Shown: positions 255-51,565, counted from the stretch's first letter. The stretch is DNA of 57,960 bases from a virus (IMGVR_UViG_3300037156_000027:1-57960); one strand, 5' to 3'. Notes: generated by a model not told the origin, from the letters alone. Numbers and translations are program-made.

Positions 255-904
255 TAAAGAAACTCGCACTTTTTGCATTACTGCTTTCTTCCGCCTATGC
301 ACAAGCGCAAAGTATTTCCCCTAATGATGTGAATGGCCCTGTACGTCAATATGGTTCCATAACTGTAGGACACTGCGCCTCGTGGACTTCAAATAATACG
401 ATTCAAGATGCGGGGGCTTGCGGCGGTGGCGGTGGCGGCTCCGGTACAGTCACCTCTGTCACCTTCACTGGTGATGGCACAGTCCTGTCGTCAACCCCAT
501 CGAGCGCCGTAACGACATCCGGCACGCTAACAGCCACACTTGCAAATCAAACAGCCAATACGGTTCTCGGTGCGCTGACGGCGACAACTCCTTCTGATTT
601 GGCATTGCCGTCATGCAGTGCAGCGACAAGCGCACTGACATGGACATCAGGAATAGGCTTCGGATGTCATACCATCGCCGGTGGAGTTACATCTGTTTCT
701 GGCGATGGGAATCTGGTGAGCAATTCATCATCGACCGGCGCCGTGGCGTTGACCCTCGCAAATGCGGCGGCTAATACTGTATGGGGTAACAACACATCAA
801 GTTCGGCAGCACCGGGCTATCAGACTATGGTTATGGCGCAGGAACCAGCTTTTACACAAGCAATGACGGCATCGGTCGCAATTCTGAACTACGGAGGTTT
901 GTAA
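251..904 (+). CDS. Gly/Thr/Ser-rich fibre-like protein with N-terminal signal peptide
   Basis: MIKKLALFALLLSSAYAQA; GGGGGSGTVTSV and GGVTSV fibre-type motifs; internal repeat TLANxxANTV. Confidence 0.7.
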   Translation: MIKKLALFALLLSSAYAQAQSISPNDVNGPVRQYGSITVGHCASWTSNNTIQDAGACGGGGGGSGTVTSVTFTGDGTVLSSTPSSAVTTSGTLTATLANQTANTVLGALTATTPSDLALPSCSAATSALTWTSGIGFGCHTIAGGVTSVSGDGNLVSNSSSTGAVALTLANAAANTVWGNNTSSSAAPGYQTMVMAQEPAFTQAMTASVAILNYGGL

Positions 905-6550: not shown

Positions 6551-7027
6551 TTAAATGACTAACTCCACCCGGCTTCTGAAACTGGCGAAAAGTTCTTCGG
6601 CCTTGATGGTGTATGCCTTCGCTGCATCGTCTTCCGATGGAAAGAAGCCAAGACTATATTTCTTTCCATCTTTATAGATTTGTGCCTTCCATTTATTGCT
6701 CTGCTTGTCCCAGAATACGCCTTTATATTTGCTGGTTGAATTAATTTGAGACTTTTTATTCATTTGATTCTGGGCTGTCGTGACAGATCTTAAATTCAAC
6801 CGTCTATTATTAAGCGTATCTCTGTCTATATGGTCTGTTTCTATGCCATCCGGTGTCTTATTGATAAGGCGGTGCATGTAGGTGGGCGCATCTCTTTTTT
6901 TAGCGCCATTTCTTTTTCCGCTACTGAGCGCATAGCCTTTATGAAAATACCATTTGCGTTTTTGTATTAACTCAAAATCTGCGTCATCGATGACGGCGAA
7001 TTTGCTCTGTGTTAATTCTATACGCAT
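6551..7027 (-). CDS. HNH-AP2 homing endonuclease
   Basis: MHRLI...TDHIDRDTLNNRRLNLR (HNH) and SKYKGV.W..KWKAQI...LG.F..EDDAAKAY (AP2). Confidence 0.92.
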   Translation of the reverse strand: MRIELTQSKFAVIDDADFELIQKRKWYFHKGYALSSGKRNGAKKRDAPTYMHRLINKTPDGIETDHIDRDTLNNRRLNLRSVTTAQNQMNKKSQINSTSKYKGVFWDKQSNKWKAQIYKDGKKYSLGFFPSEDDAAKAYTIKAEELFASFRSRVELVI

Positions 7028-7570: not shown

Positions 7571-8071
7571 ATGAACGCAGACAAAATAATTTCTATCTTG
7601 AAAAAAGAATGTGAAAAATCAGGCAGCCAAAAGGCGTGGGCAAAGGACAATGGTTTGTCGCAAGCCTATGTATGTGATGTTCTGCAAGGCAAACGCGGAA
7701 TAGGGGAATCAATCGCTAAAGCTCTTGGATACGAGCAGATCGTAAGTTATCGCCGATTTGGTGGTAGAAAAACTTATGGCGAAGGGAATACGGATATGAC
7801 GCCACATCGCGTCCAGCGTAAGCGTGTGAAGGGCTGGAAGATGCCTCCCAATACGGTCTATGTCGGGCGTCCTACGGCATATGGCAACCCTTTTTCTGTC
7901 GGGCGTGTGGGTGGTGCGGCAAAGGCTGTGGCTGACTACCGCGAATGGATAAAAACGAATTACGATCAGTCACAGATCGAGCAACTGCGCGGTAGAAATC
8001 TTGCTTGCTGGTGTGCGCTCGATCAACCCTGTCATGCCGATGTTTTATTGGAGGTAGCCAATGCCGAATGA
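7571..8071 (+). CDS. Cro/XRE-type HTH fused to DUF4326-like domain
   Basis: SQKAWAKDNGLSQAYVCDVLQGKR (HTH); YVGRPT.YGNPF...LRGRNLACWC...CHADVL (DUF4326); internal ATG at 7797. Confidence 0.8.
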   Translation: MNADKIISILKKECEKSGSQKAWAKDNGLSQAYVCDVLQGKRGIGESIAKALGYEQIVSYRRFGGRKTYGEGNTDMTPHRVQRKRVKGWKMPPNTVYVGRPTAYGNPFSVGRVGGAAKAVADYREWIKTNYDQSQIEQLRGRNLACWCALDQPCHADVLLEVANAE

Positions 8072-8276
8072 ATCACCAACGACTCTATTCGACATCATCA
8101 AGCGCGGCATTCTCGATCAAGATGTGCAGACTGTTGCGGATGCACTTACGGCAGTAAAGTATCTTCAGGATGCTTTCCAGAGAATAGATGCCATCTGCTC
8201 TCTTAATTCTGAGGACTACCGAGAAGGTTTCTCAGACATTGGAAATCTTGCAGGAGGCATTCTCAATGGAATATAA
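8061..8276 (+). CDS. Motif-led hypothetical protein (MPNESPTT)
   Basis: GGAGG RBS; motif CACCAACGAC. Confidence 0.75.
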   Translation: MPNESPTTLFDIIKRGILDQDVQTVADALTAVKYLQDAFQRIDAICSLNSEDYREGFSDIGNLAGGILNGI

Positions 8277-8493
8277 AATAACAATTATTCTGGCCGCGCT
8301 ATTGCTCTTATCAGGCTGCAAAGTCTGTGACCACGAGACCAATCAAGACAAGCGACATGCTTATTTTGAGGAGTGCATTAAAATTTCCGGCGCACAACCG
8401 GAACACAATCATGAAGATAATAACGGCGATCTCGTGAAGGCTTGCGATGATGCCGCCTATTATCAAGCACAGGAGAAAGTCTGCCATGAGTGA
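8266..8493 (+). CDS. Putative lipoprotein (no motif)
   Basis: GGAGG RBS; MEYKITIILAALLLLSGC lipobox. Confidence 0.7.
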   Translation: MEYKITIILAALLLLSGCKVCDHETNQDKRHAYFEECIKISGAQPEHNHEDNNGDLVKACDDAAYYQAQEKVCHE

Positions 8494-8791
8494 ATCTAAA
8501 ACGACGCCATGGCAGTTGATTGAGACTGCTCCACATAACAAGAAAATAATCGTCTACTATAAAAACGGGTGTGACAAGGGAAGAACCGTTTTCGCTGTGT
8601 ATATTGATAAGTTCACCGAGGAAGATACCGGCGAGTGCGACATGGATACGGACTACAGCGAAGAAAAAGATTGTTACTATTGGCCGGAAGGTTGGTACGA
8701 GCAGATAGACAATTGGGATGACTACTCAGCCGTTCGATTTCACTATAAACCAACTCATTGGATGGAGTGCCCGGAATGTCCCAAACGGTAA
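8486..8791 (+). CDS. Motif-led DUF551-like protein (MSESKTT)
   Basis: WQLIETAP...PTHWMECP; AGGAG RBS. Confidence 0.75.
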   Translation: MSESKTTPWQLIETAPHNKKIIVYYKNGCDKGRTVFAVYIDKFTEEDTGECDMDTDYSEEKDCYYWPEGWYEQIDNWDDYSAVRFHYKPTHWMECPECPKR

Positions 8792-8967
8792 CGACACCCA
8801 CATGGGAAATTCTAGCCAGAGCAGACGCCCCAATAAGGCTATCCGAGGCAGCATCTACCGCGCAGAAGGTTTTCAATCTGAACCGGACATCTGACCGCGC
8901 CGCAGAGATAGCATTCAAGACGCTAGAGCAAGCGCAGAAACTTTTAGTGGAGGCGGAGAATGGATAA
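8776..8967 (+). CDS. Motif-led hypothetical protein (MSQTVTT)
   Basis: GGAG RBS; motif CGGTAACGAC. Confidence 0.7.
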   Translation: MSQTVTTPTWEILARADAPIRLSEAASTAQKVFNLNRTSDRAAEIAFKTLEQAQKLLVEAENG

Positions 8968-9142
8968 ATCACCAACGACGCCGGAAGACTGCGGTGCGCA
9001 TTTGTTTCACCCTATAACGCAGTTTTGTAGGAACTGCGGAATGGCAAGAACAGGGGCTTTAGAAAATTATCTGGCTTTCATGCAAAGATATACAGACAGA
9101 CTTCAACGCCTTGAAGCTAAAGTATTCGGAGAAGCACCATGA
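8960..9142 (+). CDS. Motif-led protein with Cys/His cluster (MDKSPTT)
   Basis: CxxH...CxxC; motif present. Confidence 0.7.
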   Translation: MDKSPTTPEDCGAHLFHPITQFCRNCGMARTGALENYLAFMQRYTDRLQRLEAKVFGEAP

Positions 9143-9161
9143 CTGAAACGACGAGCAAGCC

Positions 9162-9398
9162 ATGAGAGCAACGGTTTTTACGGAGGATGAAGCCAAAGAA
9201 CGCGCCTGTTGCGGTTCTGGCAATCGTCCTGCCAATAACGGCCCCTGCATAGGCTCGAAGTGCATGGCTTGGGAATGGGTGATCGAGGCAGCTATGCCTG
9301 AAGGCGAGAAGAATGTTTACGACATAACGCCGCGAAACATGATTAAACCTATCAAGGTCGAACGTGGTTATTGCGGATTAAGCAAAGGAGATAATTAA
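9162..9398 (+). CDS. Cys-containing hypothetical protein, preceded by 8-codon motif mini-ORF 9139..9165
   Basis: CIGSKCMAW...GYCGL; ATGA coupling. Confidence 0.7.
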   Translation: MRATVFTEDEAKERACCGSGNRPANNGPCIGSKCMAWEWVIEAAMPEGEKNVYDITPRNMIKPIKVERGYCGLSKGDN

Positions 9399-9742
9399 TG
9401 GATAAAGATTCAGTAACCACTCTTGAGGAAGAGAATTTGGACTTGCTAAAGATGGTTGATGCATTCGGGAATTTTGTTCGTGCTTATGCCGATGGAGCAG
9501 ATCGGCTGCTAAGTGAGCACACAAAAATCATGCAAAAAATAGCGGAGATGGGGGAAGCGAGAAACTTGCTGATCGATAATCCACAAACGACGCCCGACCT
9601 GATTAAAGCGATCCGCACAGAACTTTATGACATCGGCTATGGCTCTCCTATGCGTGGGGATTATCAAATTGGCTTCAATGATGCTCTGCAAAGAATGGAT
9701 TGGGTTTTAGAACGTATGGAGAAACAAAATGAAACAGCCTGA
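9398..9742 (+). CDS. Motif-led protein with a second internal in-frame motif (MDKDSVTT...IDNPQTT)
   Basis: Motifs at 9411 and 9582. Confidence 0.75.
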   Translation: MDKDSVTTLEEENLDLLKMVDAFGNFVRAYADGADRLLSEHTKIMQKIAEMGEARNLLIDNPQTTPDLIKAIRTELYDIGYGSPMRGDYQIGFNDALQRMDWVLERMEKQNETA

Positions 9743-9923
9743 ATCCCAAACGACGAAACGCATTTCCTATTCACTTTTTGCGGCACTTCTTATTCCGCTT
9801 CTGGCATGGTGTGCTGGATATGACTTTGACAAGCGCGGAGCGGTTGCGTGTTTCATCTGCGTCTATTCAATCCTCCTATTCCTTTTTGTCTGGTTTGCAC
9901 CTTGGTGGAAATATGACCGATAA
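9729..9923 (+). CDS. Motif-led two-TM membrane protein (MKQPESQTT)
   Basis: Two hydrophobic helices. Confidence 0.7.
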   Translation: MKQPESQTTKRISYSLFAALLIPLLAWCAGYDFDKRGAVACFICVYSILLFLFVWFAPWWKYDR

Positions 9924-10053
9924 TCCTCAAACCACAATCATCCAACGCCTCCTGACGTTTCTATTCCCGTACAAGCGTCCGTCTATCATCGGACATATCC
10001 TTGTCCGCAATGGTTCGGTTACGGGATGTCCGGGGAGTGCGCTTAGATCATGA
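9913..10053 (+). CDS. Motif-led small protein (MTDNPQTT)
   Basis: GGTGG RBS; overlaps upstream stop. Confidence 0.6.
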   Translation: MTDNPQTTIIQRLLTFLFPYKRPSIIGHILVRNGSVTGCPGSALRS

Positions 10054-10247
10054 CATTCCGCGCATCACGCCATTGTTCGCCAAGCAAATTCATGTCGCCA
10101 AAAGGAATGCCGCAACGCAAGTCCGAGCTACTCGCATTGCATGCTGAGGGGAAGACGACATCGGAAGCAGCAGAGTTGCTGGGGATGTCTCTTAGCGCGG
10201 TTCGGCAAGCATGCGTTACTTATGGGGTTAAGTTGCGGAGGGGGTAG
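10050..10247 (+). CDS. HTH DNA-binding protein
   Basis: GKTTSEAAELLGMSLSAVRQ. Confidence 0.7.
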   Translation: MTFRASRHCSPSKFMSPKGMPQRKSELLALHAEGKTTSEAAELLGMSLSAVRQACVTYGVKLRRG

Positions 10248-10253
10248 GTGGTT

Positions 10254-10499
10254 TTAGATTCTTGCGGCATTGGCTGCATCCTTTCCCTCGACTGCTAGAA
10301 CATAAGTTCTATATGCCTCAACAACGCGAATGGCTTTATATTTGTCATCCATCAAGCAGCGGCATCCTGCATTCGTGTGCATTCCTATCGGGGTCTGAAT
10401 GCGACAGCCGCCATTTGAACAACCACCAATCTCTTTCAGGCGATTTTGGAGTGCTTGGAGTGGTTCAGATAAAGTCGTTACTGATTCATTCTTCGGCAT
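10254..10499 (-). CDS. Motif-led Cys-rich protein (MPKNESVTT)
   Basis: GGCSNGGC...GMHTNAGCRC. Confidence 0.75.
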   Translation of the reverse strand: MPKNESVTTLSEPLQALQNRLKEIGGCSNGGCRIQTPIGMHTNAGCRCLMDDKYKAIRVVEAYRTYVLAVEGKDAANAARI

Positions 10500-10734
10500 G
10501 GGGAACCTCCGGTAATGGATGCCAATGAGAGATCGGATAAATGTCTTTGTAATCAGTTCCCCAATCTCCCTGATTTTCGATCACACGCGAACCGTCGCAC
10601 ACAGGAACAAAACTACCCCCACGATATTCGGCTGTGCTGATCTCTGTATAGCGCGACCAAACCAAAATGGTTGTGCCGTCCTTTGGCGCAGTCTCAATGT
10701 CCCGCCAGAGAGTCGTTACTGATTGTTCGGCCAT
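10486..10734 (-). CDS. Motif-led DUF551-like protein (MAEQSVTT)
   Basis: WRDIETAPKDGTTILVW...SHWHPLPEVP. Confidence 0.8.
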   Translation of the reverse strand: MAEQSVTTLWRDIETAPKDGTTILVWSRYTEISTAEYRGGSFVPVCDGSRVIENQGDWGTDYKDIYPISHWHPLPEVPHAEE

Positions 10735-10883
10735 AATGCCTCCGATGCTATTTGGTGAGCTGTTTTACCGCTGCGAAAACACTTGCGGCCTTCCCGATCT
10801 CCAATTTCGACTATCTGCCCCAAGGCTTCGTATAGCCTTTGGTGGTCTAAACGGAGACGTTCACATTCTTCATTTCTTTCCAT
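10716..10883 (-). CDS. Hypothetical protein (no motif at start)
   Basis: AAGGAG RBS before ATG 10883 (MERNEEC...). Confidence 0.55.
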   Translation of the reverse strand: MERNEECERLRLDHQRLYEALGQIVEIGDREGRKCFRSGKTAHQIASEALWPNNQ

Positions 10884-11013
10884 AACGGCTCCTTGAATAA
10901 TATATCGGACGACATTCAATGCAGAGAGGCGGCCCTGAGTCTTTGCCGCATTCAACACACCGATGGGCTGAATTGTTGTTTGCGGGCTTCGTGGTTGTCG
11001 GTTGGTCAACCAT
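10870..11013 (-). CDS. Motif-led zinc-finger miniprotein (47 aa, not in ORF track; MVDQPTTT)
   Basis: CVECG...LCIEC. Confidence 0.65.
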   Translation of the reverse strand: MVDQPTTTKPANNNSAHRCVECGKDSGPPLCIECRPIYYSRSRYGKK

Positions 11014-11173
11014 TCGTTGCACCTTTCAGAGCCAATTCTGCGGCGCTATAAGCTGCGCTCCAACGCTTGCCGATCTGCCCGGAACAAGAATGCGATTTCC
11101 CTGATAAGCGGTATTCTGGAACTATCGCGTCCGCGATCTCGCAAGGTGTTTTCGTCGTTTTAGATTCAGTCAT
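11006..11173 (-). CDS. Motif-led hypothetical protein (55 aa, not in ORF track; MTESKTT)
   Basis: Overlap-coupled at both ends. Confidence 0.7.
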   Translation of the reverse strand: MTESKTTKTPCEIADAIVPEYRLSGKSHSCSGQIGKRWSAAYSAAELALKGATNG

Positions 11174-11348
11174 AGGGCTGCACCCCCTTAAAAATTGCGT
11201 TGTATGATCTGCCGCCAGCGTCGATGTAGTCTTTGGGTTTTTTCCATTGCTTCTTTTTGCGGCTAATGACTTTCTTGTCGTTTTGATCTGTATAGCTGTC
11301 CGTCTTTGCGGCGCATAAGCGACCCTTTAAATTCGTGGTTTTAGTCAT
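11166..11348 (-). CDS. Motif-led basic protein (MTKTT)
   Basis: AGGAGG RBS. Confidence 0.7.
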   Translation of the reverse strand: MTKTTNLKGRLCAAKTDSYTDQNDKKVISRKKKQWKKPKDYIDAGGRSYNAIFKGVQPYD

Positions 11349-11514
11349 GCAGCTTTCCTCCTAAATAGCACCAAGCGTTGAGCAGAACATTCTGCGGAAT
11401 TTTGGTGTCGAAATACATGCCCATGATAAGAGCCTCGCGCACTTCGTCTTGCGTCATTAACTTGCGCTGCAAGACGCGCTCTTTTATCGTTAATTCCGTC
11501 GTTTGTGTTGTCAT
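11341..11514 (-). CDS. Motif-led hypothetical protein (MTTQTT)
   Basis: GGAG RBS; ATGA coupling. Confidence 0.7.
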   Translation of the reverse strand: MTTQTTELTIKERVLQRKLMTQDEVREALIMGMYFDTKIPQNVLLNAWCYLGGKLHD

Positions 11515-11738
11515 GTGTGTCTCCAATGCACGGGATGTTCAGGATTTTTCAAATGCTCTTTAAGGCCGCTCGCCAAATTACCAGCGACCGCACGAATGCC
11601 GCCCAAACAACCAGCCGATAATTCTGGGTGATCTTTCAAAAGCACGTCGGCATCCTCGATGATGTCTTCGGCTAGACCAATGTAGCCTTGCAACCATTCA
11701 AGGTTGATCGTTTTCGTCGTTACTGTTTTGTCGGTCAT
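11511..11738 (-). CDS. Motif-led hypothetical protein (MTDKTVTT)
   Basis: ATGA coupling. Confidence 0.7.
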   Translation of the reverse strand: MTDKTVTTKTINLEWLQGYIGLAEDIIEDADVLLKDHPELSAGCLGGIRAVAGNLASGLKEHLKNPEHPVHWRHT

Positions 11739-11965
11739 CCTGTTTTCTCCGGTAAATCGGTTGGCATCCAATGGGTGATTGCGTGATCGAAGAAGGCCGA
11801 CCAATGCTGCCACACATCGCCATCCCAATAAGCGAGAGATGCTTCTTGTTTGCGCCCCTTTATTGTTGAGGTGACAACATAGGTTCCGTTCTTTGGTGGC
11901 GGTACAAGCTGCCATGCAACCGGGGTATTTACCTCCTGTAGAGTGGTTGCTGATTTATCAATCAT
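11735..11965 (-). CDS. Motif-led DUF551-like protein (MIDKSATT)
   Basis: WQLVPPPKNG...ITHWMPTDLP. Confidence 0.75.
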   Translation of the reverse strand: MIDKSATTLQEVNTPVAWQLVPPPKNGTYVVTSTIKGRKQEASLAYWDGDVWQHWSAFFDHAITHWMPTDLPEKTG

Positions 11966-12143
11966 GGGCGTTCTCCTCACAGTAACGAGCCATATCCTCT
12001 GCTAATCCTAAACGGCATTCATACGGCATGTCGTGAACGATCTTTGAGAACGAGGCCGGGGTATCTGGCGAAAGGTTAGCAAACAAAATTGCCTTACATC
12101 TCAATTCGCTGAATTTGAGAGTCGTTTGTGGATTATCGGTCAT
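11958..12143 (-). CDS. Motif-led hypothetical protein (MTDNPQTT)
   Basis: Overlap-coupled. Confidence 0.7.
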   Translation of the reverse strand: MTDNPQTTLKFSELRCKAILFANLSPDTPASFSKIVHDMPYECRLGLAEDMARYCEENAHD

Positions 12144-12483
12144 CGTCTGTCGTCCCTTCTTCAATGTGTCGCAACACTTCAGGAATTGAGCCTTCGGATA
12201 CGTTCATCTCCTGCAAATGAGCAATAATGCAGTTTTGCAGTCGTTCGATTTTCAGGCTCATATCGTTCATTTTATGGGCTGCCTTAAGTGCTGAAAGGAT
12301 TATGGGTATTTGCTTGTATCCTGTCCCACATACCAATAACTCAGCGTAAGTAGATTTAGCGAGTACGCTCAGAGCTTTTTCTGTCGTTTGTGTCGGAGAT
12401 GCTGCGCCGCACTTTGTGCAGATAACGCCATTGTTGGCATATCCGCATTGGCCGCACAGCCATTCTTTGGTGGTTTGTGTCAT
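12133..12483 (-). CDS. Motif-led protein with N-terminal RanBP2-like zinc ribbon bracketed by two motifs
   Basis: MTQTTKEWLCGQCGYANNGVICTKCGAASPTQTT. Confidence 0.75.
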   Translation of the reverse strand: MTQTTKEWLCGQCGYANNGVICTKCGAASPTQTTEKALSVLAKSTYAELLVCGTGYKQIPIILSALKAAHKMNDMSLKIERLQNCIIAHLQEMNVSEGSIPEVLRHIEEGTTDDDR

Positions 12484-12755
12484 TTTGTTATCACTCCCTT
12501 CGCCCATTCATCCAATTTGCTTTCGAGAGCCTGAATTGTAGCCCACTTTCCCGACGGAAAAAGATCGTCGTTGTCGGGCATCTGCCGCATGAGGAAAAAC
12601 ATTTTTGCCCAATCTTCGAGCGGCATATTATCGGCATCAGCAAGATCATACGTTCTAACAATCTCTTCGATGCCGCGCCGAGTTAACGGAATGAATTCGC
12701 GTAGGCTAATAAAGTCGCGGCGATAGGTGGTCGTTGGTGATTCAGGCTTGGACAT
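12480..12755 (-). CDS. Motif-led hypothetical protein (MSKPESPTT)
   Basis: GGAGG RBS. Confidence 0.75.
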   Translation of the reverse strand: MSKPESPTTTYRRDFISLREFIPLTRRGIEEIVRTYDLADADNMPLEDWAKMFFLMRQMPDNDDLFPSGKWATIQALESKLDEWAKGVITK

Positions 12756-12924
12756 TTTTCAGCCTCCAAAAGTCTATGAACTTGTCTGTCATCTCCCGCG
12801 CCTTTTCCTCGCCGAACAACCCAACGTAGTAGAAATAGGCGTTCACGCGCAGGATGCTTTCCTCGAATGGTCTATCCATTCTGGGCTTCGGAAAGCAGAT
12901 GACATTTGTCGTTTCAGTTGTCAT
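12742..12924 (-). CDS. Motif-led hypothetical protein (MTTETT)
   Basis: GGAGG RBS; ATGA coupling. Confidence 0.7.
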   Translation of the reverse strand: MTTETTNVICFPKPRMDRPFEESILRVNAYFYYVGLFGEEKAREMTDKFIDFWRLKNVQA

Positions 12925-13172
12925 AAATTGCCCTCCATATATTCCTTGTCGTGAACGATAGCGTTCGATGCAATGGCCTCGACGCCGTACCAATTGGTCA
13001 TGTCCCAAAGAGCGTCACAAACATTTTTAAGGGATTGTTTCTTTGCAGGATCGGTTTCCTTATCACATAGATGATTGAGTTCGTAGTGAGCATGGCGAAT
13101 ATCGCCTTGATCCAGCACCTTGACCATTACAGTCAACCTTTCAGTTTCGTAGGTGGTTTTTGAATCAGTCAT
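12921..13172 (-). CDS. Motif-led hypothetical protein (MTDSKTT)
   Basis: Overlap-coupled. Confidence 0.75.
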   Translation of the reverse strand: MTDSKTTYETERLTVMVKVLDQGDIRHAHYELNHLCDKETDPAKKQSLKNVCDALWDMTNWYGVEAIASNAIVHDKEYMEGNL

Positions 13173-13356
13173 TTGGAATAAATCCTTTCAAGTTATTGTC
13201 GATCCTGTACTTGGCGTGTTTTACGGATAGCCTCATTATCTTTTCTTCTCTGTCTGTGAAATTGCTGGTGTCCAAGTCTCCACAAACATCGTCGTGAACC
13301 CAAATTTGCAGTTCTGCCAAAATTTCATCTGGCGTGGTTATTGGTTTATCCTGCAT
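13165..13356 (-). CDS. Motif-led hypothetical protein (MQDKPITT)
   Basis: Overlap-coupled. Confidence 0.7.
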   Translation of the reverse strand: MQDKPITTPDEILAELQIWVHDDVCGDLDTSNFTDREEKIMRLSVKHAKYRIDNNLKGFIPND

Positions 13357-13552
13357 TTAGTTTCCTTTCTTCCTCATCCGCAAACTTCTTTGCCTGTTCG
13401 ATAATGCCGAGCCACATAATCCTGCGATAGTCTGCATCCTTGAAAACATACTCAATCTCTCCCTTCACGGGAGCGAGAAGGTTTATCGCCCTATCGCGGA
13501 TTAGCATCGCTATCTGACCGGGCGATTTCGTGGTTTGTGAATCTTTAGTCAT
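13346..13552 (-). CDS. Motif-led hypothetical protein (MTKDSQTT)
   Basis: Overlap-coupled. Confidence 0.7.
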   Translation of the reverse strand: MTKDSQTTKSPGQIAMLIRDRAINLLAPVKGEIEYVFKDADYRRIMWLGIIEQAKKFADEEERKLNAG

Positions 13553-13754
13553 CGAAAGCCATCCTTCCTACGCATAAGGATGCCCATGCCATTTGTTGTC
13601 TTGTGCATTCAAAGTGTGCCGTCTCACAAGCACCGTCATCGTGAAATGTCATTATGATGACGTTCTTAACGGTTGGATCAGCCATTGCCTGAGAGAGCAA
13701 AGACGAAACGGATTTGTGTTTACCTCCAAGGGCGACAACTTTGCTTTCATTCAT
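13545..13754 (-). CDS. Hypothetical protein (MNESKVV; motif absent)
   Basis: ATGA coupling. Confidence 0.7.
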   Translation of the reverse strand: MNESKVVALGGKHKSVSSLLSQAMADPTVKNVIIMTFHDDGACETAHFECTRQQMAWASLCVGRMAFDD

Positions 13755-13951
13755 AAGATGCCCCTTTCTATCGCCAGTTTCTCAGACATCATAATTTGGT
13801 CAGGCTCTCCAAACCCAATCTTCACAATCTTAAATTCAGAGCGGTCAAACCATGCGCGTCCAATATCAGCTTCGATCAGAGCCTTATTAGGAGCATCGTC
13901 TATTATTTTACAATTAAGCAACAAGTCCGTGGTTTGTGGATTAGTATTCAA
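13751..13951 (-). CDS. Motif-led hypothetical protein, TTG start (MNTNPQTT)
   Basis: GAGGTG RBS before TTG at 13951. Confidence 0.65.
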   Translation of the reverse strand: MNTNPQTTDLLLNCKIIDDAPNKALIEADIGRAWFDRSEFKIVKIGFGEPDQIMMSEKLAIERGIL

Positions 13952-14186
13952 GACACACCTCAAATTGTTTGCTGCATTTAGGGCACAACACTTCAACATT
14001 TTTTGTCCTATCGGTGTTATGCTCGGCAAGATCAAATCTATGGTCTTCCCAGAAGTCATCGGCATCCAAAAGGTCCACATATGCTTCACAGTGCGGACAT
14101 TCACACCAAAGCTCTATCGTCCAAGATGCAAATACTCTTTCAGCCTCCTTAGGCGTCTCTTCGGTCGTGGTTACTGATTCAGCCAT
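13941..14186 (-). CDS. Motif-led zinc-binding protein (MAESVTT)
   Basis: CPHC...CPKC. Confidence 0.75.
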   Translation of the reverse strand: MAESVTTTEETPKEAERVFASWTIELWCECPHCEAYVDLLDADDFWEDHRFDLAEHNTDRTKNVEVLCPKCSKQFEVCLEY

Positions 14187-15217: not shown

Positions 15218-15400
15218 CTATCTTGCCTCTGCCAATTTCATGCGAGACCGCCGATTAGCCGCCCTCCATTGCTTGCTCGTGTTGTCGTCTTTCCGCGCAT
15301 CGTAACAAGGCCAGCATATCCAGTATTGCTTAACCTCAGTTTTCACTTTGACCTCATATGGAGTCTTGGGTTTTTTACAGTCTGGACATACGTATTTCAT
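15218..15400 (-). CDS. Zinc-finger protein
   Basis: CPDC...CWPC. Confidence 0.6.
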   Translation of the reverse strand: MKYVCPDCKKPKTPYEVKVKTEVKQYWICWPCYDARKDDNTSKQWRAANRRSRMKLAEAR

Positions 15401-15843
15401 CTCGTCACCGGAAACCGAACCTTCTCAAAACAAGCCGTGTGATGCCCATCGCAGTATTGGCTCCCAGACTTCACTGAGGCTCCGCAGCAACGCATCTGGC
15501 GAACCTCACCGATAATATACCCGCAAAGCCCAAACGCCGGAGGCCACGGAATGGGCTTTCCCGACGGCACTCCCTGAGCTTCAGCCACGCGCTCCCTGCT
15601 CTTGGCGACAACAGCCTTAATCTTAACCTTGCGGTTATTCGCAGCTTCCACAGATGCCTTCTTGCGGTTCACACGGCTATGCGGGTGTGGCTGGGACGCG
15701 AAACCTTGCATGGGTATCTTGAGCCTATGCAGCTTGCCGATAACCGCGTTCTTTGTCTTGCCGACGATCTCAGCTATCTGCGCGGTGGTGTGCGTTGATG
15801 CGAGAGTTTGGATTTGGAGGATTTTGGCGGGTGTCCATGTCAT
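15397..15843 (-). CDS. gcrA: GcrA cell-cycle regulator homologue
   Basis: MTWT...TAQIAEIVGKTKNAVIGKLHRL N-terminus; C.YIIGE...CCGA...YCDGH C-terminus. Confidence 0.88.
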   Translation of the reverse strand: MTWTPAKILQIQTLASTHTTAQIAEIVGKTKNAVIGKLHRLKIPMQGFASQPHPHSRVNRKKASVEAANNRKVKIKAVVAKSRERVAEAQGVPSGKPIPWPPAFGLCGYIIGEVRQMRCCGASVKSGSQYCDGHHTACFEKVRFPVTR

Positions 15844-17291: not shown

Positions 17292-17603
17292 TTATTCCAT
17301 CCCTAAAGATGACATGTATAAACTCAGCAACTCCTCATTCTCGCGCCGTTTCTCAAGTTCCGTTTTTCTGAGCTTGATAACTTGGCGAATGATCTTGTTG
17401 TCGAATCCGACGCCTTTGCTCTCCTCATACACAGATTTTATATCTTGGGCGACTGCGGCTTTATCGGATTCGAGCCGTTCAATTCTTTGCACGAAAGACC
17501 GTAACCGTTCGCCGGAGATGCCGCCTGAATTATCGCCAACCCCGCGCAAATGTTCCGCGCCCTTTTTGATGATCTCGCCTTCTTCTCTTGAGAATGCTGG
17601 CAT
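17292..17603 (-). CDS. gapR: GapR/DUF2312 (UPF0335) DNA-binding protein
   Basis: LRSFVQRIERLE..K.AVAQDIKSVY.ESKGVGFDNKIIRQVIKLRK...LY...LGM. Confidence 0.9.
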   Translation of the reverse strand: MPAFSREEGEIIKKGAEHLRGVGDNSGGISGERLRSFVQRIERLESDKAAVAQDIKSVYEESKGVGFDNKIIRQVIKLRKTELEKRRENEELLSLYMSSLGME

Positions 17604-17946: not shown

Positions 17947-18573
17947 TCATACTGCTGGCGCGTCATCTTCTGCATCAGAACATCCTTCTGTTGGAGATTC
18001 GGCAGATTTATGACCGTCAGCTATTCCCGCAATCTCTTTTAGTTCAGCGAGATTAAGCTGCTTCTGTTGCGCAGGAGTTAGCTTGCCCCAATAGGTTTTT
18101 AGCGGCTCGGTGCCTTTTGCGGCTTCCAGTTTGGCGGCTTCGATCAAGGCTGTGCTGGGGGTGTGAACGACAACCAAAGTCAGCGGCTTCACAGTAAATA
18201 TCTTGCGAACGGTTTTTGATTCCGTGAGAGATAATTTCTTCTCGCCGTCTATATGCGACATATGAGAGATTCGGATGCCCCCTACCTTCTTGCCCCCGAA
18301 TATCACATCCTCATCGCCGTACAGCGTCAGGCTCTTGCCAACATAGTTTACGGAGGCCAGACCCCACAATCTCGCCAGAACCCTAGACATAGTTTTGCAT
18401 GGCTTCCAAGGCTTACCGTTATCGCCCTCAAAAAAGATAGATACCTTCTGCTGAGGATCATTATTCTTGATGACAACCTTGGTAATCGTAATGGTTTTCG
18501 ATATTCCACAGGCGATGTCATCATAATTCAACTGGTCTGACTTCGGCTCTATTGCTACGGACATATCGTTCAT
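17947..18573 (-). CDS. Probable ssDNA-binding/annealing protein paired with exonuclease
   Basis: PKSDQLNYDD...KPWKPCKTM...V.FGGKKVGGIRISHMSHID; acidic C-terminal tail; adjacent to YqaJ gene. Confidence 0.6.
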   Translation of the reverse strand: MNDMSVAIEPKSDQLNYDDIACGISKTITITKVVIKNNDPQQKVSIFFEGDNGKPWKPCKTMSRVLARLWGLASVNYVGKSLTLYGDEDVIFGGKKVGGIRISHMSHIDGEKKLSLTESKTVRKIFTVKPLTLVVVHTPSTALIEAAKLEAAKGTEPLKTYWGKLTPAQQKQLNLAELKEIAGIADGHKSAESPTEGCSDAEDDAPAV

Positions 18574-19247
18574 ATTATGTCTCCTTCAATCCTGCGTTCG
18601 GTTGGATGTAGTCGCAAGGTTTTGTCTGCGATTCGTTGCCGATAAATCTCAAAGTTCTCGGCAAGTTTTTTCTCAAATATCGTTGCCGCCGCGACTATCG
18701 CATCTTGCACAACGGGGTCAGGCAACACGCGCAACGTCAACATAGGCAAACCACCGGAATATGAGATAAAGTCCCACCATTTCCGCTCAGACACTAATAG
18801 GCATGTCTGAACCTGAATAACAAAGTCATCCGGCATCTTCTGTTCGACGATAGTTTGCACCTGAAATTTTTGTGCGCGTGATTTCACCTCAAGACCACCA
18901 GCCTCTGCGATTAGGGAGTCTGGCGAACATCCGAGTGTGAACCCGAATTTATCGTTCGTTATGAACCCAACATCCTGAAGCGGTGCGTATTTCTCATTGT
19001 AGATGATTTTGGCTTCCAATTCGTCATCATGACCGCGCAACATCGCATCGCTGACATATTGCGGCTCTACATATTTAGAAATACGCTGCGATAGCAACTC
19101 CCACATATGGCTGCGCGATTTGTCATTATCGGCGACTTTCAGGGTTGGGGTGATGATTAGCTTCATTTGGGAAGCTGTCAACAATCCGGCTCTGGCAGTA
19201 ATCCACGCATCACTGCCCTGATCAAAATTCTCATGATAGGTTATCAT
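18570..19247 (-). CDS. YqaJ/lambda-type exonuclease
   Basis: QGSDAW..ARAGLLTAS, GCSPDSL, LEVKS, QVQ..L.VSERKWWDFISY. Confidence 0.92.
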   Translation of the reverse strand: MITYHENFDQGSDAWITARAGLLTASQMKLIITPTLKVADNDKSRSHMWELLSQRISKYVEPQYVSDAMLRGHDDELEAKIIYNEKYAPLQDVGFITNDKFGFTLGCSPDSLIAEAGGLEVKSRAQKFQVQTIVEQKMPDDFVIQVQTCLLVSERKWWDFISYSGGLPMLTLRVLPDPVVQDAIVAAATIFEKKLAENFEIYRQRIADKTLRLHPTERRIEGDII

Positions 19248-23583: not shown

Positions 23584-23753
23584 GGCAATTCCTTCAATTT
23601 ATCGAAGTGATAAAGCGGCGTGAATTTCTGATCGTTGTATTCTGCGTCATGTCCTGTTTCATATATTATCAGACCAGCGGTATCCTTTCCGACAATCCAT
23701 ACTTTCTTGCCGTTCACCAATGCCCAACGTGGCGTGGTTTCAGTTTGTGCCAT
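23580..23753 (-). CDS. Motif-led protein (57 aa, not in ORF track; MAQTETT)
   Basis: AAGGAG RBS; motif CTGAAACCAC. Confidence 0.7.
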   Translation of the reverse strand: MAQTETTPRWALVNGKKVWIVGKDTAGLIIYETGHDAEYNDQKFTPLYHFDKLKELP

Positions 23754-23913
23754 GCTTTAGCTCCTTAGATATTTCCTGATTACGGTTCTGCAATTCTTCG
23801 CAGGACATTACACTTGTAAATGGCGTCTTCCATCGGCCACAATTCACACAGCTAAGTTGCGTCCCATTGGCTCTAGTTATGCGCCATACGTGAGTGGTTG
23901 GTGATTCAGTCAT
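23740..23913 (-). CDS. Motif-led protein (MTESPTT)
   Basis: GGAGGT RBS; motif CACCAACCAC; CVNCG. Confidence 0.7.
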   Translation of the reverse strand: MTESPTTHVWRITRANGTQLSCVNCGRWKTPFTSVMSCEELQNRNQEISKELKHGTN

Positions 23914-41071: not shown

Positions 41072-41743
41072 ATGCCGTTCCAATTAAGTTACACAAGTCT
41101 TGTTCAGACTCTTCAGAACTATTTGCAGCGCAATGATGCGCTTGTGATAAACCAAATCCCCCAATTCATAGAATTGGCGCAACAGAGGATCGTCCGCGAA
41201 CTTAAAATTTTGGGAACAAGAACCGAAGTGACTGGCACATTCGACGGCACCACCCAATCCACCGGCATCATGGCTAAGCCTTCCGATTGGCGCAAGACCA
41301 TCTCTTTCTATGTGGGTACAGGCGCAGGAAATAACACGCACACGCCAATCTATGAGCGCACATATGAATTTATTCGCACGGTTTATCCTGATCCTACTGT
41401 GCAGGGAACGCCTCGTTATTACGGTGATGCGGATTGGAATCATTGGCTGGTTCAGCCTTCTCCTGCTTCGGGATTGCCTTTCAAGATACCGTATTACGGG
41501 ACGCTAGTATTCCTTGACGCTACTACCTCAACGAACTGGCTGACCGTAAATGCGCCAGACTTGTTGTTGTATGCCTGTTTGATGGAAGCGATTCCGTTCC
41601 TGAAGACGGATGAGCGAATTCCTGTGTGGCAAGGGATGTACCAAAATGCTAAACTGGCCTTGCAAGCGCAGGAGCTTGAGGGATTGTATGATTCACAACA
41701 GATTGCAGCACTTCCAGAGCCACAGCCTGCGCCGGGGAGATAA
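41072..41743 (+). CDS. Adaptor/tail tubular A-like protein
   Basis: IPQFIELAQQRI, GTPRYY, TNWL..NAPDLLLYACLMEA.PFLK. Confidence 0.75.
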   Translation: MPFQLSYTSLVQTLQNYLQRNDALVINQIPQFIELAQQRIVRELKILGTRTEVTGTFDGTTQSTGIMAKPSDWRKTISFYVGTGAGNNTHTPIYERTYEFIRTVYPDPTVQGTPRYYGDADWNHWLVQPSPASGLPFKIPYYGTLVFLDATTSTNWLTVNAPDLLLYACLMEAIPFLKTDERIPVWQGMYQNAKLALQAQELEGLYDSQQIAALPEPQPAPGR

Positions 41744-41746
41744 GAG

Positions 41747-43852
41747 ATGACAAGTTCCTTTACGGATACCTTTGGCGGGAGTGCCGTCAATCCTTCAGAT
41801 GTTGCGTATGCCGCCTATTCTTTTGGCGCGGCGACCTCTCTTGTGTGGCCTTCCTTCTCAGCCGGGAATACGAATGTTGCTGCACGGTTTATGAGCATAA
41901 CTGCTACCGTTTCAAACATAAATATCTCGATGCCGGATGCGACGCTCAATAGCGTTGGTTATGATGCAATTATATTCAATGCCGGTTCGGACAGTTTCAA
42001 TGTCGTTGATTTTAATGGCGGCGCGATTGCTACGATCACGACAGGACAAACATATTATCTGATGCTGACCAGTAATGCCACGCAAGCCGGAACATGGCAG
42101 ACGATTCAGTTCGGTGTCGGGACTGGCTCGGCAAACGCTTCGGCTCTCGCGGGCTATGGATTGCTTGCCGTCGCAGGAGTGCTGGACGTTAATTTTGTCG
42201 TTAATCCCTTTACCGGAAACTTCAATCTGCCTTCGACGGGTCGGGCGCAGCTTTATAACAACACCGGCGGATCAAACACGATCACGCTTCCTGCTGCGGC
42301 GACTGTCGGCAATGGCTTCTTCTTTATGCTGGCGAACAACGGTTCTGGGGATGTTACTGTTGCTCCAATCGGGGGAAGCACGATTGACCTGAATTCGACA
42401 TCGACGTTCCACCCGACGCAATCAGGTTTTATTATTTCTGACGGCTCGAATTGGGAAACTGTCGGCAAGGGTATCGAGAATACGTTTGCCGTGACGCTTA
42501 TAAACTTGAATGTTGCTGGTGGCGTTGATGTTACCGAAACATCCGCGCAGGCTCAAAACCTCATTCAGCAATATACGGGTGTTCTGACTGGGAATATCAA
42601 CGTCATTATGCCGACCACGGTTCAGCTTTATTTCTGCAATAATCTCACGACAGGCGCACACACCCTGACTGTAAAGACGGCGGCGGGGACGGGTATTCTT
42701 GTGCCGCAAACGTCGTCTCTTATTCTGTATTGCGATGGGACAAATATCGTCAATGGATTCACTGCTACGATCACAAGCAACCTGTCTTTGCTCGCTGGAT
42801 CAGCGACAACGCCGAGTTTGAGTTTCTCGGCATCTACCAGCACGGGGATATTTGCGCCAGTTACGGGGGACTTGTCTGTTGCATGTATTGGCACGGAAGT
42901 AATTAGATTCTCCGCTCAGGCTGTTGCGGTAAATTATTTTGGTGCTGTGGCATCGGCATCGGCGGCGGCTCTGGCCTTGGGGGCGGTTGGCACGGATACA
43001 AACATCAGCATAAATATCGTTCCTAAGGGGACAGGCACAGTGACCTGTGGCTATCTAGATGGGACGATCATAGGATCGAATACGGCGGCTGCTGGCACGT
43101 TCACGACATTGGCAAGCGCAGCGCATACAATTACATCTTCATCGGCAACGGCTTTCACGGTTGGCGCGAATGGGGCAACCAATCCCGTTCTGGCAGTGAA
43201 TGCTAATACGGGGACTGTCAAGACTGGTCTGAGTATAACGGGAGCGGCGACGGGCGGCACAACCGCCTTGGCTGTCACTGATAGCGGATCAAATGCCAAC
43301 CTGACGATTGATGCCAAAGGGTCGGGCACTATCGGCATCGGCAGCGTCAGCACTGGGGAGGTTACGATCACGCCTGCGACGATACTAAGCTCAACATTGG
43401 CTGTAACTGGACACACGACATTTGAGGGTGTGACATCCACGGGTGCTACGGGGACGGGAAAGCTTGTTTATGATACCTCTCCGACCATTGCTGGTTATGC
43501 TCAATTGGCGGTAGCTCAATCTTTCACGGCATCACAGGGTGCGACGCCTGTTGTTTTGACGAGTTCCAGCAACTCGACTGCTATAAATTTTTCCTTGAGC
43601 AATAATTTCTCTGCCACCCTGAGTGAGAATACAACATTCGCCAATCCATCTAATATCGTGGCGGGAAAAGTCTATAACATCGCTATTGTGAATGGCGCGG
43701 GGCCATACACCGTGGCCTATGGTTCGTATTTCAAATTTCCTGGCGGCACGGTTCCATCGGTCACAGCGACGAACGGCGCGAGTGATATTCTGGTTTGTTA
43801 TGCGCGGACGACTACTTTCCTCGAAACCGTTATGATTAAAGGATTCGCGTAA
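41747..43852 (+). CDS. Tail fibre protein
   Basis: 701 aa Thr/Gly/Ala-rich; fibre motifs such as ITLPAAATVGNGF, GSATTPSLSF, IGSNTAAAGTFT. Confidence 0.8.
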   Translation: MTSSFTDTFGGSAVNPSDVAYAAYSFGAATSLVWPSFSAGNTNVAARFMSITATVSNINISMPDATLNSVGYDAIIFNAGSDSFNVVDFNGGAIATITTGQTYYLMLTSNATQAGTWQTIQFGVGTGSANASALAGYGLLAVAGVLDVNFVVNPFTGNFNLPSTGRAQLYNNTGGSNTITLPAAATVGNGFFFMLANNGSGDVTVAPIGGSTIDLNSTSTFHPTQSGFIISDGSNWETVGKGIENTFAVTLINLNVAGGVDVTETSAQAQNLIQQYTGVLTGNINVIMPTTVQLYFCNNLTTGAHTLTVKTAAGTGILVPQTSSLILYCDGTNIVNGFTATITSNLSLLAGSATTPSLSFSASTSTGIFAPVTGDLSVACIGTEVIRFSAQAVAVNYFGAVASASAAALALGAVGTDTNISINIVPKGTGTVTCGYLDGTIIGSNTAAAGTFTTLASAAHTITSSSATAFTVGANGATNPVLAVNANTGTVKTGLSITGAATGGTTALAVTDSGSNANLTIDAKGSGTIGIGSVSTGEVTITPATILSSTLAVTGHTTFEGVTSTGATGTGKLVYDTSPTIAGYAQLAVAQSFTASQGATPVVLTSSSNSTAINFSLSNNFSATLSENTTFANPSNIVAGKVYNIAIVNGAGPYTVAYGSYFKFPGGTVPSVTATNGASDILVCYARTTTFLETVMIKGFA

Positions 43853-51560: not shown

Positions 51561-51565
51561 GCGAT

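What the first reader, a model, noticed from the sequence alone, without database searches (positions are those of the whole stretch)
8061..14186. About 26 unrelated small ORFs share an in-frame 5' nucleotide motif C-N3-AAC[GC]AC: candidate gene-cassette system
Seen: almost every ORF here begins M-(0-4 aa)-[S/P/T]-x-T-T. Plus-strand starts are 8061, 8486, 8776, 8960, 9139, 9398, 9729, 9913. Minus-strand starts are 10270, 10499, 10734, 11013, 11173, 11348, 11514, 11738, 11965, 12143, 12483, 12755, 12924, 13172, 13356, 13552, 13951, 14186. Two more copies are internal, giving 28. The constraint is nucleotide-level: residue x varies (P,K,V,E,Q,T,A,I) but its codon ends in A in every copy, the first Thr codon is always ACG or ACC, and the second Thr wobble is free. 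At equal base frequencies the motif occurs about once per 8 kb per strand, so 1-2 copies are expected here, against 28 observed, all sense and all in one phase. Downstream of the motif the proteins are unrelated (DUF551-like, zinc fingers, membrane proteins). Inference: the motif is a recombination junction through which promoterless, start-less gene bodies join in frame to the RBS+ATG at the end of the previous module. Alternatively it is an mRNA signal (translational operator or processing site). I know of no described system with this layout.
Basis: partly seen in the sequence, partly recalled or inferred. Interest (0 to 1): 0.95.

Follow-up and report, generated by a model that had tools for sequence, protein, structure and literature searches.

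The report
In-frame swap joint in phage genes
About thirty unrelated small genes of this phage, and of several unrelated phages, carry the same ten-base motif a few codons after their start, and a second sample holds the same gene bodies joined to other starts at that motif, so it looks like a joint where start-less gene bodies are swapped, a layout I could not find described.

Summary
CNNNAACSAC occurs 40 times in the window (a complete 57,960-bp phage record), against 11.5 ± 3.6 in shuffles. Thirty copies lie in 8061-14186, and 28 of these are sense and in one frame (xCN NNA ACS ACN). Twenty-six sit 2-7 codons after a start and two are internal. The constraint is on nucleotides, not on the peptide. 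The same in-frame motif marks about 60 more gene starts in seven other records, including two complete phages that share almost no genes with this one. A structural relative (G001) has none, and neither do 5 cultured alphaproteobacterial phages. In a second metagenome run from another study, contigs 99-100% identical to pieces of this array are joined differently. All five discontinuities fall within -6 to +12 nt of a motif. One contig fuses the leader of plus-strand gene 9913, in frame, to the body of minus-strand gene 11514. Arrays end in leader-plus-motif stubs without a gene body, as expected if each module carries the next gene's RBS, ATG and leader. The enzyme is unknown: there is no integrase, and a serine recombinase occurs in only two of three complete phages. 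An additional RNA-level role for the motif is not excluded.

The parts
8061..9935 (+). Rightward array: 8 motif-bearing starts (8061, 8486, 8776, 8960, 9139, 9398, 9729, 9913) plus one internal copy (9582)
10220..14186 (-). Leftward array: 18 motif-bearing starts (14186 down to 10270) plus one internal copy (12392). It converges on the rightward array.
8074..8083 (+). motif, gene 8061 (leader MPNESP)
8496..8505 (+). motif, gene 8486; its homologues carry Pfam PF04448 (DUF551)
8786..8795 (+). motif, gene 8776
8970..8979 (+). motif, gene 8960
9139..9165 (+). 8-codon mini-ORF with the motif (9143-9152). Its stop overlaps the ATG (ATGA) of the motif-less ORF 9162-9398.
9411..9420 (+). motif, gene 9398
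9582..9591 (+). Internal in-frame motif inside ORF 9398-9742. X2 record 2 begins to match exactly here, after 2 unlike letters.
9745..9754 (+). Motif, gene 9729. X2 record 3 runs on unlike the window after 9757.
9926..9935 (+). Motif, gene 9913 (last of the rightward array). In X2 this is the left side of the joint 9926|11506.
10220..10270 (-). Terminal stub of the leftward array: RBS, ATG, leader and motif (10248-10257), then a 16-codon frame with no gene body
10474..10483 (-). motif, gene 10499
10712..10721 (-). motif, gene 10734 (DUF551, above the Pfam cut-off)
10991..11000 (-). motif, gene 11013
11154..11163 (-). Motif, gene 11173. X2 record 6 runs on unlike the window upstream of 11169, so it carries another leader.
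11335..11344 (-). motif, gene 11348
11498..11507 (-). Motif, gene 11514. In X2 this is the right side of the joint 9926|11506.
11716..11725 (-). motif, gene 11738
11943..11952 (-). motif, gene 11965
12121..12130 (-). motif, gene 12143; same leader family as 9913 and 9570-9591
12383..12392 (-). internal in-frame motif inside ORF 12483-12133, after a 30-residue Cys-rich N-terminal part
12470..12479 (-). motif, gene 12483
12730..12739 (-). motif, gene 12755
12908..12917 (-). Motif, gene 12924. X2 record 7 (12862-13012) runs through it unchanged.
13153..13162 (-). motif, gene 13172
13334..13343 (-). motif, gene 13356
13530..13539 (-). motif, gene 13552; 39-41% identical homologue in the G003 array
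13929..13938 (-). motif, gene with TTG start at 13951
14167..14176 (-). motif, gene 14186 (first of the leftward array)
23734..23743 (-). motif, small gene 23753, outside the reported range
23894..23903 (-). motif, small gene 23913, outside the reported range
6551..7027 (-). HNH-AP2 endonuclease. It is the only protein family found in all three complete array-bearing phages. Treat it as a candidate reader of the motif, as a lead only.
18570..19247 (-). YqaJ/RecE-like recombination exonuclease, a possible general recombination function

Best explanation
The motif is the conserved core of a short leader segment (about -4 to +9 around its first C). This segment acts as an in-frame joint between interchangeable modules in arrays of small accessory genes.

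A module runs from one motif to the next. It holds a gene body without a start of its own, the body's stop codon, and then the RBS, ATG and 1-6 leader codons of the following gene. Because every joint has the same phase, recombination between any two joints produces intact genes. The codon at the left edge is split (T/A/C, then C, then any base), and these are four-fold degenerate boxes.

Shown:
- the motif, its phase and its nucleotide-level constraint;
- its presence in unrelated phages;
- leader families whose similarity stops at the motif;
- re-joined forms of identical bodies in another sample, with every discontinuity at a motif.

Inferred:
- that exchange is ongoing and moves modules within and between arrays and phages;
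- that something sequence-specific reads the invariant bases. I think a DNA enzyme is slightly more likely than an RNA or translation factor.

The catalyst is unknown. Candidates are the HNH-AP2 endonuclease shared by the three complete array phages (break-induced exchange), or the phage's exonuclease-based recombination acting on 15-34-nt leader homologies.
For: Enrichment and phase. Test without wobble assumptions.

Other records: 85 ATG+SD+motif starts in 8 records. G003 (69.9 kb, about 31 starts) shares only 5 weak protein hits with the window. The others are G008 and G009 and L113, L135, L139 and L145.

Controls: the structural relative G001 has no enrichment and no other start-proximal motif. 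Five cultured alphaproteobacterial phages show no clusters.

Run X2:
- joint 9926|11506 on opposite strands, side 98 nt, 1 shared letter;
- loose ends at 9757 and 11169;
- record 2 fits from 9582 onward, after 2 unlike letters.
The five positions lie 0, +12, 0, +1 and -6 nt from the nearest motif C. Windows of that width around 28 sites cover about 7.6% of the stretch. One search shows the joint is in frame. Records 2, 4 and 6 keep each body together with the downstream leader, as the model predicts.

Body-less stubs at array ends: window 10270 (16 codons), L135 4458, L139 973 and G003 53807.

Leader families whose similarity ends at or just after the motif: I2, I9, I11, I22.

The leader is an add-on: 148 of 150 DUF551 homologues lack it. 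The 87%-identical homologue P0001 has a different, one-codon-shorter leader. P0003 and window ORFs 9398 and 12483 carry internal in-frame copies.
Against: The rearrangement evidence rests on one run. It consists of contigs only, at depth 2-3.5, and the contigs are 151-244 nt long. The tool warns that single low-depth contigs can err.

The parental sequences of the X2 forms are unknown. The crossover point inside the leader/motif segment therefore cannot be fixed, and homologous exchange between similar leaders would look the same.

No recombinase is common to the array phages. No tyrosine recombinase was found in 5 of 5 records. A serine recombinase is present in G003 and G008 but absent from the window.

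G003 and its second copy L117 are 99.99% identical, with no rearrangement.

Only 4 homologous body pairs were found between arrays, so actual sharing of modules between phages is barely seen.

The motif is not depleted outside the arrays. A nuclease cutting every copy would predict depletion.

P0001 also differs from the window protein at its C-terminal 8 residues. The strict motif-to-motif module does not predict this.

A recombination role alone does not explain why exactly these bases are invariant.
Confidence: 0.65

Rival explanations
1. The motif is primarily an mRNA signal shared by one temporal class of genes. It could be a translational operator or enhancer, or a processing site, read by a host or phage factor close to the start codon. 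Recombination at the motif would then be a by-product of its conservation, as with the PeSL elements of T4-type phages. This rival overlaps with the best explanation: both may hold.
For: The motif always lies 4-25 nt after an ATG, behind a Shine-Dalgarno sequence (for distances).

The segment is G-poor and slightly less paired than its flanks in RNA folds.

Internal mini-ORFs carry the motif and end in an ATGA or TAATG overlap with a motif-less ORF. This fits a need to start translation at a motif-bearing start. There are five such mini-ORFs: window 9139; G003 44786, 46298 and 46757; G008 43846.

The invariant bases are kept across phages of 43-53% G+C, which points to a common reader.
Against: An RNA signal has no need to be in one reading frame, yet 28 of 28 copies here and all copies in the other arrays are in phase.

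The distance to the ATG varies from 4 to 25 nt, which is loose for a ribosome-contact element.

G or C at one core position rules out pairing with a single RNA partner.

Body-less stubs at array ends serve no purpose for an expression signal.

There was no Rfam match and no conserved hairpin.

No RNA data were available to test this.
Confidence: 0.25
2. The motif is a peptide signal: an N-terminal [S/T/P]-x-T-T tag for degradation, targeting or modification. The codon pattern would then be incidental.
For: All copies encode [S/T/P]-x-T-T near the N-terminus. G never occurs at the first position of the S/T/P codon, so Ala is excluded.
Against: The third base of the variable codon is always A, whatever the amino acid. 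The first Thr is never ACA or ACT, although these make up 41% of Thr codons in long genes.

The proteins translated after the five internal mini-ORFs do not carry the tag.

148 of 150 family homologues lack the tag.
Confidence: 0.03
3. The motif is a DNA signal unrelated to module exchange, such as a primase start site, a Chi-like site or a modification target. It would sit at gene starts only by coincidence.
For: The orientation flips between the two convergent arrays. About a third of window copies overlap GANTC (read). The phage carries a GcrA-like gene.
Against: Such signals have no reason to lie in one reading frame 2-7 codons after start codons. They also have no reason to be absent from the other 52 kb of the genome.
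Confidence: 0.05
4. It is an artefact: chance, base composition, or recent duplication of one gene.
For: None beyond leader similarity.
Against: 0 of 100 shuffles reached 40 matches. The gene bodies are unrelated. The same pattern occurs in independent records.
Confidence: 0.01

Closest known systems
PeSL (promoter-early stem-loop) cassettes of T4-type phages. Arbiol et al. 2010, PMC2839356: I read the abstract and sections 14 and 16.
   Same: Short conserved elements repeated between many small non-essential ORFs in hyperplastic regions. Differences between close relatives map to these elements. Recombination between them shuffles, deletes or inserts ORFs. The element also brings expression signals to whatever it flanks.
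   Different: PeSLs are intergenic and about 100 bp long. They consist of a sigma-70 promoter plus a terminator stem-loop and work through homology. Here the element has 10-14 conserved bases inside the coding sequence, in a fixed reading frame. There is no promoter excess (6 found against 11.5 expected) and no hairpin. The start codon and the gene body belong to different modules.
Integron gene cassettes (attI/attC with an IntI tyrosine recombinase; features recalled from general knowledge)
   Same: Arrays of mostly promoterless single-gene modules in one orientation, with a recombination site at each boundary. From recall: some cassettes rely on a short ORF in attI for translational coupling, which resembles the mini-ORFs here.
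   Different: No tyrosine recombinase in any of 5 records. No attC-like imperfect inverted repeats. The joint lies inside the ORF and supplies the start codon. The carriers are phages that appear lytic.
Shufflons and DNA-invertase systems (Rci/sfx of R64; Gin, Cin, Hin, Min). Recalled, not read.
   Same: The crossover sites lie inside coding sequence in a fixed frame, so one N-terminal part can be joined to alternative downstream parts. The X2 joint links sites on opposite strands. G003 and G008 have a small serine recombinase just upstream of the array.
   Different: Those systems switch alternative C-terminal parts of one protein at a single expression site. Here every module already has a start, so nothing is switched on or off. 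Most sites are direct repeats. The window phage has no serine recombinase. No dyad-symmetric site is present (no conservation beyond +9).
T4 RegA-type translational operators and 'downstream box' elements (recalled)
   Same: A short sequence near the start codon shared by many early mRNAs.
   Different: Those elements overlap the start codon or lie at a fairly fixed distance from it, and they need no reading frame. No homologue of such a repressor was found or sought by name.

Membership tests
Integron | IntI-type tyrosine recombinase next to the array | tested here: not met
   PF00589: 0 of 5 records (G000, G001, G003, G008, G009). The control rang in 14 of 14 known genomes.
Integron | attC sites: imperfect inverted repeats at the 3' end of each cassette | tested here: not met
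   No conserved hairpin around 78 sites. The repeat families found are leader/motif copies only.
Integron | Array of single-gene, promoterless cassettes bounded by recombination sites | tested here: met
   26 consecutive small genes, each with a motif. Promoter-like sites do not exceed chance (6 against 11.5). X2 discontinuities fall at the motifs.
PeSL-type regulatory cassette | Sigma-70-like promoter plus terminator stem-loop between ORFs | tested here: not met
   promoters 6 against 11.5 ± 3.4, terminators 7 against 8.4 ± 3.2. The motif is intragenic.
PeSL-type regulatory cassette | Differences between close relatives map to the repeated element | tested here: met
   5 of 5 discontinuities lie within -6 to +12 nt of a motif. 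Caveat: one run, at low depth.
Shufflon / DNA invertase system | Dedicated recombinase (Rci-type tyrosine, or Hin/Gin-type serine) | tested here: not met
   Window: no PF00239 and no PF00589. A serine recombinase is present upstream of the arrays in G003 and G008 only.
Shufflon / DNA invertase system | In-frame crossover sites inside coding sequence | tested here: met
Translational operator of an early-gene regulon (RegA-like) | Sequence-specific RNA-binding repressor and a measurable effect on translation | not testable with these tools
   No RNA holder is listed for this DNA. No shared phage protein apart from HNH-AP2.
Homing-endonuclease-driven exchange | Endonuclease that cuts at or near the motif | not testable with these tools
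   An HNH-AP2 gene is present in 3 of 3 complete array phages and absent from the array-free relative G001. Its cleavage specificity is unknown.

The most novel reading that the evidence does not exclude
A dedicated, sequence-specific cassette system in lytic phages, in which the recombination site is a fixed-phase codon block just after the start codon. Gene bodies circulate without their own translation start. Each module carries the start of the next one, so any captured body is expressed wherever it lands. A so far unidentified DNA enzyme reads H-C|W-V-H-A-A-C-S-A-C (candidate: the HNH-AP2 endonuclease) and drives exchange within arrays, between arrays and between unrelated phages of one host group. 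In effect this would be a 'translational-fusion integron' for accessory or counter-defence genes.
Probability: 0.35. Interest if true: 0.92.

Novelty: new variant of a known kind. Interest (0 to 1): 0.85.

Why it matters
Small early or accessory genes are where phages keep much of their host-takeover and counter-defence repertoire. How that repertoire turns over so fast is an open question. Here the turnover has a visible handle: a fixed-phase joint that separates the translation start from the gene body, is shared by unrelated phages, and shows re-joined forms in nature.

If the exchange is enzyme-driven, it would be a new class of cassette system, and possibly a tool for scar-defined in-frame gene swapping. 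If it is driven by homology at an expression signal, it extends the PeSL principle from intergenic promoters to coding-sequence leaders.

Either way, the motif gives a simple search key for finding accessory-gene arrays in uncultured phages, and a way to follow their exchange in metagenome time series.

Tried and rejected
**Relatives among cultured phages.** Megablast and blastn of the array found none, apart from one 81-nt chance hit. Megablast of 20 kb each from G003 and G008 also found none. The best terminase tblastn hit was 27% identical.

**Prophage arrays in reference genomes.** One gapped-pattern scan of genome contigs gave 31 stretches, about the number expected by chance.
- None is an array of gene starts.
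- L077 is a different repeat.

- Besides G003, G008 and G009, they gave only chance hits and one possible small case, L028.
- The DUF551-based locus search gave 13 loci, none with arrays.
- A homologue of gene 11514 in a 36% G+C contig has no motif.
- An exact 27-mer from a gene body found nothing.

**Protein search with the 9566-9739 unit.** No candidates.

**A phage-encoded reader.**
- All-against-all BLASTP found no family shared by the three complete array phages except HNH-AP2.
- DUF4326 occurs only in the window.
- GapR occurs in G000 and G008 only.

**RNA structure.** No conserved hairpin and no Rfam match.

**Other checks.**
- No tRNA genes.
- The shared C-terminal peptide of window gene 11348 and G009 gene 13856 is conserved as protein, with synonymous changes. 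It is not a junction.
- I noticed that the motif resembles invertase half-sites, the DnaA box and the 'downstream box'. These comparisons come from recall only and fit only some copies, so I dropped them.

**RNA evidence.** No RNA holder is listed, so expression and RNA ends could not be examined.

**Cover of run X2.** X2 holds a small share of the sampled words (0.10), and most bins have no cover. I draw nothing from the uncovered parts. Contig ends without loose letters (9781, 10730, 10955, 10995, 11409, 12862, 13012) are not counted as breakpoints. Two of them (10730, 10995) happen to lie near motifs and five do not.

**Literature.**
- Full-text searches found nothing describing this layout.
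- One search found the PeSL paper.
- Supplementary files were not consulted.

Full report
**What the window is.** The window is a complete virus record of 57,960 bp with direct terminal repeats and 50% G+C.
- It has a terminase, portal, primases and tail genes.
- It has no close relative among 50,697 cultured phage records.
- It encodes a GcrA-like and a GapR-like protein. GapR tblastn hits fall in 70 cultured phage records, almost all of them phages of Alphaproteobacteria. I infer that the host is an alphaproteobacterium.

**The observation.** CNNNAACSAC occurs 40 times, against 11.5 ± 3.6 in shuffles.
- Thirty copies lie in 8061-14186. Twenty-eight of these are on the sense strand in the one frame xCN NNA ACS ACN.
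- Twenty-six sit 2-7 codons after a start codon with a Shine-Dalgarno sequence. Two are internal to ORFs (9582, 12392).
- The remaining two (9373, 12576) look like chance copies.
- Two further start-proximal copies lie at 23743 and 23903.
- A search that assumes only 'start, a few codons, Thr-Thr' confirms the wobble constraints for every gene start in the array. Long genes of the same phage use ACA or ACT for 41% of Thr codons, and third-base A for 12-53% of the relevant amino acids.
- Across 85 sites in 8 records, conservation runs from -4 to +9 (R-A-W-H-C-W-V-H-A-A-C-S-A-C) and stops abruptly after +9. The core positions in that count are fixed by the search pattern itself.
- Outside the array the motif is at chance level.
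- Four genes in the range lack the motif: 8266, 9162, 10050 and 13754.

**Spread beyond this phage.** Pattern scans found the same in-frame arrangement elsewhere.

| Record | Size / G+C | Motif-bearing starts |
|---|---|---|
| G003 | 69,878 bp, 52.7% | about 31, at 42.7-57.7 kb |
| G008 | 52,141 bp, 46% | 7-8 |
| G009 | fragment | 3 |
| L113, L135, L139, L145 | metagenome contigs | 4, 8, 3, 5 |

- G003 shares only five weak protein hits with the window. G000/G008 and G003/G008 share a few DNA segments.
- G001 shares the window's structural genes (terminase about 60% identical). It has neither the motif nor any other start-proximal motif, and no homologues of the array genes.
- Five cultured alphaproteobacterial phages show no clusters.
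- One scan of 185,579 reference genomes gave only chance-level hits.

The motif is therefore neither a lineage trait nor a general host-group trait. It travels with arrays of small genes.

**The gene bodies are unrelated and the leader is an add-on.**
- Among 102 motif-bearing ORFs, only four cross-record pairs are homologous.
- For the DUF551 member 10734, 148 of 150 representative homologues lack an N-terminal [STP]xTT, and their alignments begin right after the T-T.
- For the DUF551 member 8486, the two closest homologues keep T-T behind different leaders. One homologue has the motif internally after an N-terminal extension, and more distant ones lack it.
- Within the window the leaders form families. 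Their similarity starts at the RBS or ATG and ends at or just after the motif (I2, I9, I11, I22).

**Evidence for re-joining.** One other public run (X2; another study; labelled by the tool as the same kind of habitat) holds contigs 99-100% identical to pieces of the array. They depart from the window at five places:
- Record 2 fits from 9582, the first C of the internal motif, after two unlike letters.
- Record 3 shares 9728-9757 and then runs on unlike the window, 3 nt after the motif of gene 9729.
- Record 4 joins 9926 to 11506 on opposite strands with one shared letter. This accounts for two of the five places.
- Record 6 fits 10995-11169 and runs on unlike the window upstream. It therefore has another leader on the body of gene 11173.

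One search shows that the record-4 joint places the leader of plus-strand gene 9913 in frame on the body of minus-strand gene 11514. The five positions lie 0, +12, 0, +1 and -6 nt from the nearest motif C. Windows of that width around the 28 sites cover about 7.6% of the stretch.

In records 2, 4 and 6 each body stays linked to the leader downstream of it. Record 7 passes through the motif at 12917 unchanged.

Caveats:
- The contigs are short (151-244 nt) and at depth 2-3.5.
- There is only one such run.
- The parental forms are unknown, so the crossover cannot be placed within the segment.
- A de Bruijn chimera is unlikely, because the partner sites share far fewer than 30 identical bases.

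**Other features that fit modules.**
- The leftward array ends in a leader + motif stub followed by a 16-codon frame with no gene body (10270). Similar last units close the arrays of L135, L139 and the main block of G003. Such stubs are expected if every module carries the next start.
- Five internal mini-ORFs carry the motif and end in an ATGA or TAATG overlap with a motif-less ORF: window 9139; G003 44786, 46298 and 46757; G008 43846. They look like adaptors that give a gene with its own start a joint. Equally, they could be leader ORFs needed for translation.
- The internal in-frame copies (9582, 12392) look like fusions of two modules.

**What does the joining.**
- No tyrosine recombinase is present in any of five records.
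- A 198-residue serine recombinase lies directly upstream of the arrays of G003 and G008, with 73% nucleotide identity between otherwise unrelated phages. It is absent from the window.
- The only family shared by the three complete array phages and missing from G001 is an HNH-AP2 endonuclease. This rests on four genomes and is a lead only.
- The window also has a YqaJ/RecE-like exonuclease, which could act on the 15-34-nt leader homologies.
- The strictly invariant bases with free positions between them, kept across 43-53% G+C, call for a sequence-specific reader. Whether it reads DNA or RNA is open.
- No hairpin, Rfam family, promoter excess or terminator excess accompanies the motif.

**Comparison and verdict.**
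- The closest described system is the PeSL cassette of T4-type phages (PMC2839356; abstract and sections 14 and 16 read). PeSLs are repeated regulatory elements that flank small ORFs and mediate their shuffling. They differ in being intergenic promoter/terminator units of about 100 bp.
- Integrons share the array-of-cassettes logic but fail on the integrase and on attC.
- Shufflons share in-frame crossover sites but fail on the recombinase and on the single expression site.
- Full-text searches found no description of a fixed-phase, start-proximal junction motif.

I rate the observation as confirmed and the junction reading as supported (confidence 0.65). I file the system as a new variant of modular cassette exchange, with about a one-in-three chance that it is a dedicated, enzyme-driven system of a new kind.

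Noticed in passing
window 15397-15843 (-) and 17292-17603 (-): GcrA-like and GapR-like proteins. GapR homologues among cultured phages are almost all in phages of Alphaproteobacteria (70 records), which points to the host group.
   Followed up: partly
G003 41519-41923 (+) and G008 45600-46004 (-): A 198-residue serine recombinase lies immediately upstream of the motif arrays in both phages. The two genes are 73% identical in DNA, although the phages are otherwise unrelated. The window has no such gene. G003 also holds a C-terminal fragment copy at 55335-55586.
   Followed up: partly
window 6551-7027 (-): HNH-AP2 endonuclease. Homologues are present in G003 and G008 but not in the array-free relative G001.
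   Followed up: partly
window 436-666 (+): This segment is 72-76% identical to a sequence present four times near both ends of G008 (192-422, 810-1039, 51408-51638, 52026-52141). It lies inside ORF 251-904.
   Followed up: no
window 8266-8493 (+): Lipoprotein-like small gene (signal peptide with a Cys) without the motif. Its start overlaps the end of gene 8061.
   Followed up: no
window 10050-10247 (+): Small sigma-70 region 4-like HTH gene without the motif, sitting between the two convergent arrays. A terminator-like hairpin lies on the minus strand at 10141-10111.
   Followed up: no
window, about a third of the motif copies (e.g. 8070-8074, 8492-8496, 9741-9745): The bases just before and including the motif's first C form GANTC. 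From recall, this is the target of the CcrM methylase of Alphaproteobacteria and the binding context of GcrA.
   Followed up: no
L077 32-66, 188-222, 2621-2655, 2854-2889: A contig of an Opitutia MAG carries a roughly 35-nt repeat, four times, that contains a motif-like word. It is not an array of gene starts and remains unexplained.
   Followed up: no
L028 2657 and 3643 (+): A 45-kb viral contig with two start-proximal motif copies; possibly a further small array.
   Followed up: no
window 51566-57364 (+): Very long ORF of 1,932 residues at the right end of the structural region. Not examined.
   Followed up: no
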